Positions 7,986-8,243 of a stretch of 64,000 bases of DNA are shown piece by piece. The stretch's first letter is position 1. Each line of letters begins with the position of its first letter. The position numbers and the translations under genes are program-made. This DNA is from Polyangiaceae bacterium (GTDB taxonomy: Bacteria; Myxococcota_A; Polyangia; Polyangiales; Polyangiaceae): the NCBI GenBank assembly GCA_044224495.1, contig JBGAKG010000005.1, positions 300,711 to 364,710 on the forward strand, written 5' to 3'. The notes beneath the pieces were generated by a model. That model made no database searches and was not told the origin of the DNA. It was given only the letters and a program-made list of their open reading frames with translations.

Positions 7986-8243
7986 ATGACCTTCCGAACC
8001 GGAGACCGCGCCGATCGCGACGTGCTCACGGTCGAAGGTCGCGTCATCAGCTGGGCGCACTCGCACGGCAAGGTCGAAGTGACGATGGCGGGGAAGCCCT
8101 TCGTCGTCACTGCGCACCGCAGCGGGAAACTGCGCATGAACCACGTTCACGTCCTGGAAGGCGACATGGTGAAGGTGGAGCTTTCACCCTTCGACCTCCG
8201 ACGCGGGCGAATCATCGAACGCGAGCGCTCGCCGCGCTCTTGA
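7986..8243 (+). CDS. infA-like: translation initiation factor IF-1 (InfA) family paralog carried by the mobile element
   Basis: [39 protein letters not shown] aligns to E. coli IF-1 ([39 protein letters not shown]). S1/OB fold, 85 aa. Confidence 0.7.
   Translation: [85 protein letters not shown]

What the first reader, a model, noticed from the sequence alone, without database searches (positions are those of the whole stretch)
7986..8243. Mobile-element-encoded IF-1 (infA) paralog
An 85-aa protein with clear IF-1 family similarity ([36 protein letters not shown]) sits inside the island between unknown genes and the replication helicase. IF-1 is an essential single-copy housekeeping factor, so a paralog on a satellite/prophage-like element hints at manipulation of host translation initiation or superinfection exclusion. 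IF-1 homologs carried by mobile elements are, as far as I know, not well characterised.
Basis: partly seen in the sequence, partly recalled or inferred. Interest (0 to 1): 0.7.

Follow-up and report, generated by a model that had tools for sequence, protein, structure and literature searches.

The report
Divergent IF-1 copy on integrated element
A small virus-like element inserted at a tRNA gene carries its own, unusually divergent copy of translation initiation factor IF-1. Virus-borne IF-1 genes have been reported before, but none has been tested experimentally, so this is a clean extra example and not a new kind of system.

Summary
ORF 7986-8243 (+) encodes an 85-aa protein that passes the curated cut-offs of Pfam eIF-1a (46.8 vs 30.2 bits) and NCBIfam infA (62.3 vs 61.15, borderline). 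Its AlphaFold model matches solved bacterial IF-1 structures (TM 0.87-0.90).

It lies inside a 9.77-kb element integrated at tRNA-Phe, bounded by 46-nt direct repeats and carrying integrase, resolvase, a DnaB-like helicase and a TerL-like gene.

It is very unlikely to be the housekeeping infA:
- It is at most 50% identical to 78 canonical IF-1s, which are 58-77% identical to E. coli IF-1.
- It lacks the ribosomal-protein neighbourhood found at 79 of 80 canonical loci.
- Three related elements lack it.
- In an NJ tree it groups with a few other odd IF-1s, never with canonical ones.

Most 30S-contact residues are kept (G-K-x-R-M, F/Y-D, R-G-R, C-terminal Arg). The conserved helix-44 loop (L-P-N-A) is replaced, and a hairpin carries a 3-residue insertion. 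One partial relative gives dN/dS of about 0.19.

Most likely it is an accessory, ribosome-binding IF-1 variant that the element uses to bias initiation. That step is inferred, not shown.

IF-1 genes are already reported in huge phages, and 439 IMG/VR contigs hold relatives. I could not check the rest of the genome for a canonical infA.

The parts
4857..4930 (+). Intact tRNA-Phe (GAA), the integration target. Its 3' half (4885-4930) is attL.
   Evidence: ARAGORN; Rfam tRNA 71 bits; direct repeat family D2.
14658..14703 (+). attR: a 46-nt copy of the tRNA-Phe 3' half, matching at 45 of 46 positions. It closes the 9.77-kb element.
   Evidence: 2 matches of the 23-nt core, 0 expected. Two Logan contigs from the same sample both break at this repeat.
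5258..5443 (+). First gene of the element: a small NikA-like, probably ribbon-helix-helix, protein. It is preceded by the only two sigma-70-like promoter matches found in 4900-10400 (5141-5168 and 5221-5248).
   Evidence: Pfam NikA-like, E 4.7e-4, below the curated cut-off; promoter scan found 2 sites against 0.2 expected.
5586..6440 (+). 284-aa protein with weak similarity to phage structural (major tail) families.
   Evidence: phrog_9998 at E 1e-6 and phrog_584 (major tail protein) at E 1.3e-3.
7137..7739 (+). 200-aa protein of unknown function; first gene of the three-gene run that ends with the IF-1 gene.
   Evidence: No hit in Pfam, PHROG, NCBIfam, PADLOC or the PDB. The single-sequence AlphaFold2 model is unusable, pLDDT 40.
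7736..7981 (+). 81-aa protein of unknown function. Its GTG start overlaps the stop of the previous gene, and its stop lies 4 nt before the IF-1 start.
   Evidence: no family hits.
7974..7977 (+). GGAG Shine-Dalgarno motif, 8 nt upstream of the IF-1 start codon and inside the end of the upstream ORF.
   Evidence: Read directly from the sequence.
7986..8243 (+). The IF-1-like gene (85 aa). It has an OB fold, 7 extra N-terminal residues, a 3-residue insertion (M34-A35-G36) in the beta2-beta3 hairpin and a replaced helix-44 loop.
8247..8275 (+). GC-rich stem-loop immediately after the stop codon. The same sequence follows the stop codon of the only close relative (L176). It may be a terminator or mRNA-stabilising hairpin; it has no U-tract.
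   Evidence: RNA fold; the start of the same hairpin after the L176 stop. The whole 195-nt spacer is not significantly structured, z = -1.6.
8426..9850 (+). DnaB-like replicative helicase (C-terminal domain only), the replication gene of the element.
   Evidence: Pfam DnaB_C at 47.7 bits; phrog_19; homologs at 50-55% identity in other tRNA-integrated elements.
10276..10860 (+). Serine recombinase (resolvase plus HTH).
   Evidence: Pfam Resolvase at 93.4 bits; gene call in L001.
10939..11481 (+). 180-aa protein just upstream of TerL; by position a possible small terminase. Shared with the Labilithrix luteola element.
   Evidence: 52% identity to L167. The small-terminase role is inferred from position only.
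11484..12974 (+). Terminase-large-subunit-like protein.
   Evidence: phrog_2 at E 3.5e-13; 38% identity to the L. luteola element.
13281..13775 (+). Possible excisionase or HTH regulator. The match is weak and the ORF overlaps the integrase start region.
   Evidence: phrog_66 at E 2.5e-4.
13580..14641 (+). Tyrosine integrase, adjacent to attR.
   Evidence: Pfam Phage_integrase at 49.1 bits; 353-aa gene call in L001.

Best explanation
The gene encodes a real, selectively maintained but strongly diverged paralog of bacterial initiation factor IF-1. It is accessory cargo on a 9.77-kb prophage- or satellite-like element integrated at tRNA-Phe.

Expression (inferred): it is made together with two upstream unknown genes, as the last gene of a translationally coupled run just before the helicase gene.

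Mechanism (inferred): the protein docks in the A-site cleft of the host 30S subunit, as IF-1 does. It keeps the residues that contact the 530 loop, protein S12 and the flipped-out bases of helix 44. Its altered helix-44 loop and extended hairpin would change what happens next. Either it raises the effective IF-1:ribosome ratio, or it replaces host IF-1 with a variant that shifts start-site or mRNA selection. Both would bias initiation towards the element's transcripts, or those of its helper, when the element is active.

Shown here: the gene, its fold, its IF-1 family membership, its position in a mobile element, its divergence, and purifying selection over 49 codons.

Not shown: ribosome binding, and any effect on translation.
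For: IF-1 family and fold:
- Pfam and NCBIfam matches above their cut-offs.
- Every PDB sequence hit is IF-1.
- The AlphaFold2 model (pLDDT 84.8) superposes on E. coli IF1 bound to the 30S subunit (9fco_I) with TM 0.90 and rmsd 1.6 A.

Contact residues. These were mapped onto the T. thermophilus IF1-30S contacts listed in bioRxiv 10.1101/2023.10.27.564398 and PMC4611024, using the alignment.
- Identical: G38, K39, R41, M42, D61, R64, R66 and R70 (E. coli R69).
- Conservative changes: R23 to K, Y35 to H (E. coli also has H), Y60 to F.
- The protein is basic, pI 10.7.

Accessory paralog, not the housekeeping gene:
- Median identity to 78 canonical IF-1s is 46% (maximum 50%). E. coli IF1 is 68% identical to the same set (minimum 58%).
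- 79 of 80 canonical loci have L36, S13, S11, Adk or Map within 10 kb. The window has none.
- Three related helicase-bearing elements lack the gene.
- In an NJ tree it joins P0006, P0012 and P0010 in 185 of 200 bootstraps, and canonical IF-1 in 0 of 200.

Functional gene:
- It has a coding GC pattern and a Shine-Dalgarno motif.
- dN/dS is 0.19, with dS about 1.0, against the only close relative over 49 codons.

Precedent:
- IF1 and IF3 are reported in huge phages and interpreted as tools for redirecting host translation (PMC7162821).
- Shifts in the IF1/70S and IF3/70S ratios cause translational bias during cold shock (PMC7873864).
Against: - The most conserved IF-1 loop is changed. Canonical A16-L-P18-N-A20 inserts into helix 44; here it reads S-W-A-H-S and is one residue shorter.
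- Other conserved positions also differ: F22 is Gly, R46 is His (94% Arg or Lys in relatives), and the aromatic at position 69 is Glu. Binding could therefore be weakened, or the protein could act off the ribosome.
- The NCBIfam score clears its cut-off by only 1.1 bits.
- Related elements do without the gene, so it is dispensable for the element's basic life cycle.
- There are no expression data.
- The lineage is nearly an orphan: 8 hits below 1e-10 among 1.84 billion representatives, and two metagenome scans found nothing.
- The dN/dS estimate rests on 49 codons from a chimeric contig at about 1x coverage.
- I did not confirm that a canonical infA exists in the same genome.
Confidence: 0.45

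Rival explanations
1. The OB fold has been co-opted for a job off the ribosome. In this view the protein binds RNA or ssDNA for the element, for example as an RNA chaperone or antiterminator, or as an ssDNA-binding or helicase-loading partner of the DnaB-like helicase encoded just downstream.
For: - The gene is the last one before the helicase, in what looks like the replication module.
- The ribosome-specific helix-44 loop, F22 and R46 are lost, while the general basic surface is kept; pI is 10.7.
- More distant Foldseek hits include ssDNA-binding OB folds (ranks 40 and 48).
- From my own knowledge, not checked here: E. coli IF1 is reported to have RNA-chaperone and antitermination activity and to be structurally akin to CspA.
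Against: - The residues retained are specifically those that contact the 530 loop, S12 and the A1492/A1493 pockets: G-K-x-R-M, F-D, R-G-R and the C-terminal Arg. A generic nucleic-acid binder would not need them.
- Related elements with a helicase of 50-55% identity have no IF-1-like gene, so the helicase does not need such a partner.
- A 180-bp spacer and a hairpin separate the gene from the helicase.
Confidence: 0.22
2. A decoy IF-1 used as a weapon. In this view the protein occupies the 30S A site but, because of its altered helix-44 loop, does not support normal initiation. It would then throttle translation of the host, of a superinfecting phage or of the helper phage, giving superinfection exclusion, abortive infection or helper interference.
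For: - Docking residues are kept but the functional loop is replaced, which is the pattern expected of a dominant-negative factor.
- The gene is accessory cargo on a small satellite-like element.
- From my own knowledge: satellites commonly carry interference or defence cargo.
Against: - No PADLOC defence model matches the protein or its neighbours.
- No partner gene is recognisable as a toxin, an antitoxin or a sensor.
- The gene sits in the same co-directional gene string as the element's replication and packaging genes. An inhibitor made there would also hit the element's own translation.
Confidence: 0.15
3. Either a decaying hitch-hiker without function, or the cell's only infA that happens to lie in an island.
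For: - The protein is highly divergent and nearly an orphan.
- Related elements lack it.
- I could not confirm a canonical infA elsewhere in the genome.
Against: Against a decaying gene:
- The ORF is intact, with a Shine-Dalgarno motif and a coding GC pattern.
- The fold is predicted with confidence.
- The invariant IF-1 core residues are kept.
- dN/dS is 0.19.

Against the only infA:
- It lies between att repeats next to an integrase.
- It lacks the ribosomal-cluster context seen at 79 of 80 canonical loci.
- Canonical IF-1s of Myxococcota-type genomes (L102, L113, L155) are 66-73% identical to E. coli IF1, but only 46-49% identical to this protein.
Confidence: 0.08

Closest known systems
Bacterial translation initiation factor IF-1 (infA; Pfam PF01176, NCBIfam TIGR00008; structures 1HR0, 9FCO)
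   Same: - Same fold: a five-stranded OB barrel with a short helix between strands 3 and 4.
- Full-length profile match.
- Same G-K-x-R-M, Y/F-D, R-G-R and C-terminal Arg motifs, which contact the 530 loop, S12 and helix 44.
- Basic charge.
   Different: - At most 50% identical to canonical IF-1s, which are at least 58% identical to E. coli IF1.
- 7 extra N-terminal residues and a 3-residue hairpin insertion.
- The L-P-N-A loop is replaced; F22 is Gly, R46 is His and the aromatic at position 69 is Glu.
- Not in the adk-map-infA-rpmJ-rpsM neighbourhood.
- Encoded on an integrated mobile element.
Phage-encoded IF1 homologs (huge phages of Al-Shayeb et al. 2020; Lak megaphages; Sinorhizobium phage Phosso; Bacteroides DAC/SJC phages; PHROG 30201)
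   Same: - An IF-1-family gene carried by a virus-like element and not by the host's ribosomal gene cluster.
- Proposed, but untested, to redirect host translation initiation.
- Matches phrog_30201 at 51 bits.
   Different: - The published cases are phages of more than 160 kb that carry many translation genes. Here the carrier is a 9.8-kb tRNA-integrated element with no other translation gene.
- Identity to every phage copy is at most 54%, and only over part of the protein.
- None of the 80 IMG/VR loci shares any other gene with this element.
Chromid or second-replicon infA2 paralogs (for example Rmet_5176 of Cupriavidus metallidurans CH34)
   Same: A second IF-1 gene outside the main ribosomal context of a bacterium (PMC2864759).
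   Different: - infA2 lies on a stable secondary chromosome, not on an att-flanked integrative element.
- I did not compare the sequences.
Phage satellites and small tRNA-integrating prophage-like islands (PICI-like elements); related elements in Labilithrix luteola CP012333 and two MAG contigs
   Same: - About 10 kb, with a tyrosine integrase at a tRNA att site.
- A replication helicase and a terminase-like gene, and few or no recognisable morphogenesis genes.
- The helicase is 50-55% identical to those of elements at tRNA-Lys, tRNA-Asn and tRNA-Leu.
   Different: - All genes are on one strand and no repressor is recognisable.
- It carries a TerL-like gene, whereas satellites typically carry a small terminase.
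- Helper dependence is unknown.
- The relatives lack the IF-1 gene.

Membership tests
Bacterial IF-1 (infA) | Profile match above the curated thresholds (PF01176; TIGR00008 equivalog). | tested here: met
   PF01176 scored 46.8 bits against a cut-off of 30.2. TIGR00008 scored 62.3 against 61.15, passing by only 1.1 bits.
Bacterial IF-1 (infA) | OB fold: a five-stranded barrel with a short helix between strands 3 and 4, superposable on solved IF-1. | tested here: met
   The AlphaFold2 model (pLDDT 84.8) has strands 14-24, 27-34, 37-45, 61-66 and 73-79 and a helix at 48-51. The top 13 Foldseek hits are all bacterial IF-1, with target TM-scores from 0.61 to 0.90 (0.83-0.90 for the crystal and cryo-EM structures).
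Bacterial IF-1 (infA) | Conservation of the 30S-contact residues: helix-44 loop P18/A20, R23, R41, R46; 530-loop contacts G38, K39, M42, R66; S12 contacts Y60, D61; R64; E. coli R69. | tested here: inconclusive
   Identical: G38, K39, R41, M42, D61, R64, R66, R70. Conservative: R23 to K, Y35 to H, Y60 to F. Changed: K2 to A, P18 to A within a rewritten and shortened loop, F22 to G, R46 to H.
Bacterial IF-1 (infA) | Ortholog-level sequence conservation. Canonical IF-1s were 58-77% identical to E. coli IF1 in the sample used. | tested here: not met
   Identity to 78 canonical IF-1s has a median of 46% and a maximum of 50%. Mean distance from the query to canonical IF-1s is 0.86, against 0.30 among the canonical ones.
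Bacterial IF-1 (infA) | Housekeeping gene neighbourhood: the ribosomal-protein / adk-map-infA-rpmJ-rpsM cluster. | tested here: not met
   79 of 80 canonical loci have at least one such marker within 10 kb. The 64-kb window has none.
Bacterial IF-1 (infA) | Binds the 30S A site and cooperates with IF2 and IF3; essential. | not testable with these tools
   This needs biochemistry or genetics.
Virus- or mobile-element-encoded IF-1 homologs | The gene lies inside a demonstrable mobile element. | tested here: met
   It lies between 46-nt att repeats derived from tRNA-Phe, together with integrase, resolvase, helicase and TerL-like genes.
Virus- or mobile-element-encoded IF-1 homologs | Sequence affinity to phage-borne copies and not to host copies. 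| tested here: inconclusive
   It matches phrog_30201 at 51 bits, but only over residues 37-83. In the NJ tree its sister group is P0006, P0012 and P0010 in 185 of 200 bootstraps, and never canonical IF-1. The viral nature of those three rests only on gene architecture: L002 is a run of small overlapping ORFs with no Pfam or PHROG hits and no ribosomal markers. The query is further from the IMG/VR copies (mean distance 1.12) than from canonical IF-1s (0.86).
Cold-shock (CSD) or S1-domain OB-fold proteins | Profile match to the CSD or S1 families. | tested here: not met
   PF01176 was the only Pfam family reported at E <= 0.01. The top structural hits are IF-1 and eIF1A, not Csp or S1.
Phage satellite (PICI-like) | A small integrative element with integrase, a replication module and a packaging-redirection gene, lacking a full morphogenesis set, and mobilised by a helper phage. 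| tested here: inconclusive
   The size (9.77 kb), integrase, att sites, helicase and TerL-like gene are present. No portal or capsid gene was recognised, but several ORFs remain unannotated. Helper dependence cannot be tested here.
Known anti-phage defence systems (PADLOC) | Match to a defence-system protein model. | tested here: not met
   There were no PADLOC hits for the IF-1-like protein or for 8 neighbouring proteins.

The most novel reading that the evidence does not exclude
The query, together with P0006, P0010 and P0012, represents a distinct clade of IF-1 derivatives specific to mobile elements. These proteins would still dock in the 30S A site, but a rewritten helix-44 loop and an extended beta2-beta3 hairpin would reprogram initiation. 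They might change start-codon or leader selectivity, or lock out competing mRNAs. Small elements would then have a one-gene way to take over ribosomes, or to exclude rival phages.
Probability: 0.15. Interest if true: 0.7.

Novelty: new member of a known kind. Interest (0 to 1): 0.35.

Why it matters
Phage-borne initiation factors have been catalogued mainly in huge phages, and none has been tested experimentally. This locus is a minimal, clean case: a single IF-1-like gene is the only translation gene on an element of about 10 kb with defined att ends. The protein keeps the docking residues but has lost the conserved helix-44 loop.

That makes it a tractable protein for asking whether element-encoded IF-1s act as extra factor, as altered-specificity factor, or as decoy. 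If it does change initiation selectivity, it would show that even very small elements manipulate the ribosome directly. If it does not, it is simply another divergent paralog.

Tried and rejected
Searches that led nowhere:
- Genome scan for the source genome and its canonical infA. Organism identity and a second infA remain unverified.
- Exact look-up of a host kinase to obtain the NCBI record. The sequence is not on record.
- Cluster look-up. It returned no accessions or names for the query.
- Two metagenome scans for close relatives: a peptide pattern and a degenerate DNA pattern for D-L-x-R-G-R-I-[IV]-E-R-E-R. Neither found a true relative.
- IMG/VR scans with the helicase and with the 200-aa upstream protein. 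No relatives were found.
- Annotation of the two upstream genes with Pfam, PHROG, NCBIfam, PADLOC and PDB sequences and with single-sequence AlphaFold2 of the 200-aa protein (pLDDT 40). Nothing usable came out.
- Rfam on 4700-17500. It found only the tRNA. The 195-nt spacer after the gene is not significantly structured overall, z = -1.6.
- Plasmid search. The 66 hits are mostly large non-mobilizable records that look like chromosomal fragments, so I drew no conclusion from them.
- PHROG scan of the neighbours of P0006 and P0012. There were no hits, so I call their context phage-like only on architecture.

Readings considered and rejected:
- A cold-shock or S1 protein. There are no such profile hits.
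- An infC gene disrupted by the island. The IF3_N ORF ends 66 bp outside attR, so the insertion cannot have cut it. The long tblastn alignment across attR runs through a stop codon and the tRNA fragment, and I take it to be spurious.
- P0005 as a natural SDR-IF1 fusion. The GC content jumps from 55% to 67% at the junction, on a 553-bp contig at 1.1x coverage, which indicates an assembly chimera.
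Full report
**1. The observation**

ORF 7986-8243 (+) is real and sits at the stated coordinates. It has an ATG start and a TGA stop and encodes 85 aa.

- A GGAG motif lies 8 nt upstream of the start.
- The start codon is 4 nt after the stop of an 81-aa ORF (7736-7981).
- That ORF's GTG start in turn overlaps the stop of a 200-aa ORF (7137-7739). The three genes therefore look translationally coupled.
- GC by codon position is 0.67/0.45/0.80, which matches real genes in this 70% GC window. The other two frames do not show this pattern.

**2. Family assignment**

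- Pfam reports only PF01176 (eIF-1a/IF-1): E 2.3e-12, 46.8 bits against a gathering score of 30.2, covering nearly the whole profile.
- NCBIfam's infA equivalog TIGR00008 scores 62.3 bits against a cut-off of 61.15, a bare pass.
- PHROGs gives phrog_30201, a phage family of unknown function, at 51 bits over residues 37-83.
- All 12 PDB sequence matches are bacterial IF-1, the best being 6c00 at E 4e-13 over residues 8-81.
- An AlphaFold2 model built on 59 sequences has pLDDT 84.8 and shows the five strands and short helix of IF-1.
- The top 13 Foldseek hits in the PDB are all bacterial IF-1. E. coli IF1 on the 30S subunit (9fco_I) matches with target TM 0.90 and rmsd 1.6 A.

**3. The carrier**

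- tRNA-Phe(GAA) lies at 4857-4930.
- Its 3' 46 nt (4885-4930) recur at 14658-14703 with one mismatch. A 23-nt core occurs exactly twice in the window, against 0 expected by chance.

The 9.77 kb between the repeats has 68.0% GC, against 70.5% outside. All its genes are on the + strand:

| Coordinates | Product | Evidence |
|---|---|---|
| 5258-5443 | NikA-like, probably RHH, protein | |
| 5586-6440 | weakly tail-like protein | |
| 6440-7072 | unannotated small ORFs | |
| 7137-8243 | three-gene run ending in the IF-1 gene | |
| 8426-9850 | DnaB_C helicase | |
| 10276-10860 | serine recombinase | |
| 10939-11481 | 180-aa protein | |
| 11484-12974 | TerL-like protein (phrog_2) | |
| 12983-13279 | 98-aa protein, no family hit | |
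| 13281-13775 | weak excisionase-like ORF | |
| 13580-14641 | tyrosine integrase | |

An independent Logan assembly of run SRR28480385 breaks its contigs at the att repeat.

Helicase homologs of 50-55% identity sit in comparable integrase-bearing elements next to tRNA-Lys, tRNA-Asn and tRNA-Leu. One of these is in Labilithrix luteola (CP012333) and also shares the 180-aa protein and TerL. From this I infer that the host is probably a member of the Myxococcota. None of these relatives has an IF-1-like gene. The gene is therefore cargo, not a core part of the element family.

**4. Paralog or housekeeping copy?**

Four indirect tests all point the same way.

- **Divergence.** The protein is 46% (median; maximum 50%) identical to 78 canonical IF-1s drawn from many phyla. 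E. coli IF1 is 68% (minimum 58%) identical to the same set. Canonical IF-1s from Myxococcota-type genomes are 66-73% identical to E. coli IF1 but only 46-49% identical to this protein.
- **Context.** 79 of 80 canonical loci have L36, S13, S11, Adk or Map within 10 kb. Only 3 of 80 IMG/VR loci do, and the 64-kb window has none.
- **Tree position.** In an NJ analysis the protein joins P0006, P0012 and P0010 in 185 of 200 bootstraps and canonical IF-1 in 0 of 200. Mean distance to canonical IF-1s is 0.86, against 0.30 among the canonical ones.
- **Rarity.** An exhaustive HMMER search of 1.84 billion representatives found only 8 hits below 1e-10.

Of its tree partners, P0006 lies in a run of twelve small, co-directional, overlapping ORFs with no Pfam or PHROG hits and no ribosomal markers. 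That is phage-like by architecture only.

**5. Is it functional?**

The only close relative is the C-terminal half of P0005. This comes from a 553-bp ENA contig at 1.1x coverage that is an assembly chimera: the N-terminal part is SDR-like with GC 55%, and the IF-1 part has GC 67%.

- Over 49 shared codons, nucleotide identity is 73.5%.
- Differences by codon position are 10/8/21.
- dS is about 1.0 and dN/dS is about 0.19.
- The GC-rich hairpin that follows the stop codon in the window (8247-8275) begins in the same way after the stop in that contig.

This is limited but real evidence of purifying selection.

**6. What the residues say**

I used the T. thermophilus IF1-30S contacts listed in bioRxiv 10.1101/2023.10.27.564398, the E. 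coli Arg69 and Arg64 data summarised in PMC4611024, and a MAFFT alignment with 67 relatives.

| Status | T. thermophilus residue -> residue here |
|---|---|
| Identical | G38 -> G47, K39 -> K48, R41 -> R50, M42 -> M51, D61 -> D70, R64 -> R73, R66 -> R75, R70 -> R79 |
| Conservative | R23 -> K29, Y35 -> H44 (E. coli also has H), Y60 -> F69 |
| Changed | K2 -> A9; loop A16-L-P18-N-A20 -> S22-W-A-H-S26, one residue shorter; F22 -> G28 (82% Phe in relatives); R46 -> H55 (94% Arg or Lys); aromatic 69 -> E78 |

In addition, three residues (M34-A35-G36) lengthen the beta2-beta3 hairpin, and there are 7 extra N-terminal residues. The protein is more basic than E. coli IF1 (pI 10.7 against 9.6).

So the face that contacts the 530 loop, S12 and the flipped-out adenines is preserved. 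The loop that canonical IF-1 inserts into the minor groove of helix 44 is rewritten.

**7. Mechanism**

I commit to the following reading at a confidence of about 0.45. The protein is an accessory IF-1 variant that still docks in the 30S A site. It changes initiation when the element is active, either by raising the effective IF-1:ribosome ratio or by acting as a factor of altered specificity.

The precedents are indirect. Huge-phage IF1 and IF3 have been interpreted as tools for redirecting host translation (PMC7162821; PMC11748809). Changes in the IF1/70S and IF3/70S ratios bias which mRNAs are translated after cold shock (PMC7873864). Ribosome binding and any effect on translation are inferred, not shown.

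The rivals are:

- **An off-ribosome nucleic-acid-binding role in the replication module (0.22).** The gene's position next to the helicase and the lost helix-44 loop favour this. The specific retention of ribosome-contact motifs, and the absence of the gene from related helicase-bearing elements, count against it.
- **A dominant-negative decoy used for exclusion or helper interference (0.15).** The pattern of kept docking residues and a changed loop favours this. The lack of any PADLOC hit, and co-expression with the element's own genes, count against it.
- **A functionless gene, or the only infA (0.08).** The evidence against this is in sections 4 and 5.

**8. Comparison with what is known**

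Phage-encoded IF-1 is not new.

- tblastn against GenBank phages finds IF-1 homologs in Lak megaphages, Sinorhizobium jumbo phage Phosso (annotated as IF-1), a 595-kb uncultured phage and the roughly 170-kb Bacteroides DAC/SJC phages. All are below 55% identity.
- My IMG/VR scan found 439 contigs with IF-1 relatives. Of the 80 best, 53 come from contigs shorter than 100 kb and 13 from contigs shorter than 20 kb, and 77 of the 80 lack host ribosomal markers. The trait is therefore not restricted to huge phages.
- Bacterial infA2 paralogs are also annotated, for example in Cupriavidus metallidurans CH34.

What is particular here is the very small, att-defined carrier with no other translation gene, the degree of divergence, and the replaced helix-44 loop. 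I rate it a new member of a known but functionally uncharacterised kind.

**9. Verdict**

The IF-1 paralog on a mobile element stands. The functional ideas are plausible but untested. The uniqueness claim is overstated.
- Interest is 0.35.
- The most novel reading not excluded by the evidence is a mobile-element-specific, loop-rewritten IF-1 clade that reprograms or blocks initiation. I give it a probability of about 0.15 and an interest of 0.7 if true.

Noticed in passing
window 14769-14981 (-): A 70-aa stand-alone IF-3 N-terminal-domain protein (PF05198 at 88.5 bits; TIGR00168 model positions 5-69 of 170) lies 66 bp outside attR. It has no IF3 C-terminal domain, and its start overlaps the stop of an unannotated 131-aa ORF (14978-15373). 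It belongs to a well-conserved family of IF3_N-only proteins: about 60 clusters of 62-120 aa at 70-85% identity. Members occur in varied chromosomal contexts (L173, L174), so it appears to be a host gene and not part of the island. It is nonetheless a second truncated or variant initiation-factor gene within 7 kb of the IF-1 paralog.
   Followed up: partly
window 4992-5010 and 14590-14608: An exact 19-nt direct repeat, GGGGTACCGCCGGGGTACC, has both copies inside the element: one 62 nt from attL and one about 50 nt from attR. After excision they would flank the attP core, so they are candidate integrase arm-binding sites (family D11).
   Followed up: no
window 14717-14737: A short tandem run, (GCGCAT)3, lies between attR and the stop codon of the IF3_N ORF.
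   Followed up: no
L176 (ENA ERZ23578823, 553 bp): The protein P0005 looks like an SDR/epimerase fused to the C-terminal half of IF-1. It is almost certainly an assembly chimera: GC jumps from 55% to 67% at the junction, and coverage is 1.1x. Its IF-1 half is the only close relative of the window gene (76% amino-acid and 73.5% nucleotide identity), and the same hairpin follows its stop codon.
   Followed up: yes
L165, L166, L167 (L167 is Labilithrix luteola CP012333, 11.84-11.86 Mb): A family of integrase-bearing elements shares a DnaB_C-only helicase of 50-55% identity. They are inserted next to tRNA-Lys, tRNA-Asn and tRNA-Leu in high-GC genomes that are probably Myxococcota. The L. luteola element also shares the 180-aa protein and TerL, and is larger.
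   Followed up: partly
IMG/VR loci L004-L083: IF-1 homologs occur on viral contigs of every size, from 4.5 to 527 kb. 53 of the 80 best come from contigs shorter than 100 kb, and 77 of 80 have no host ribosomal-cluster marker within 10 kb. Virus-borne IF-1 is therefore broader than the huge-phage literature suggests.
   Followed up: partly
window 5141-5248: The only two sigma-70-like promoter matches in 4900-10400 lie just upstream of the first island gene (5258). All island genes are co-directional, which suggests one long transcription unit starting at the attL end.
   Followed up: no
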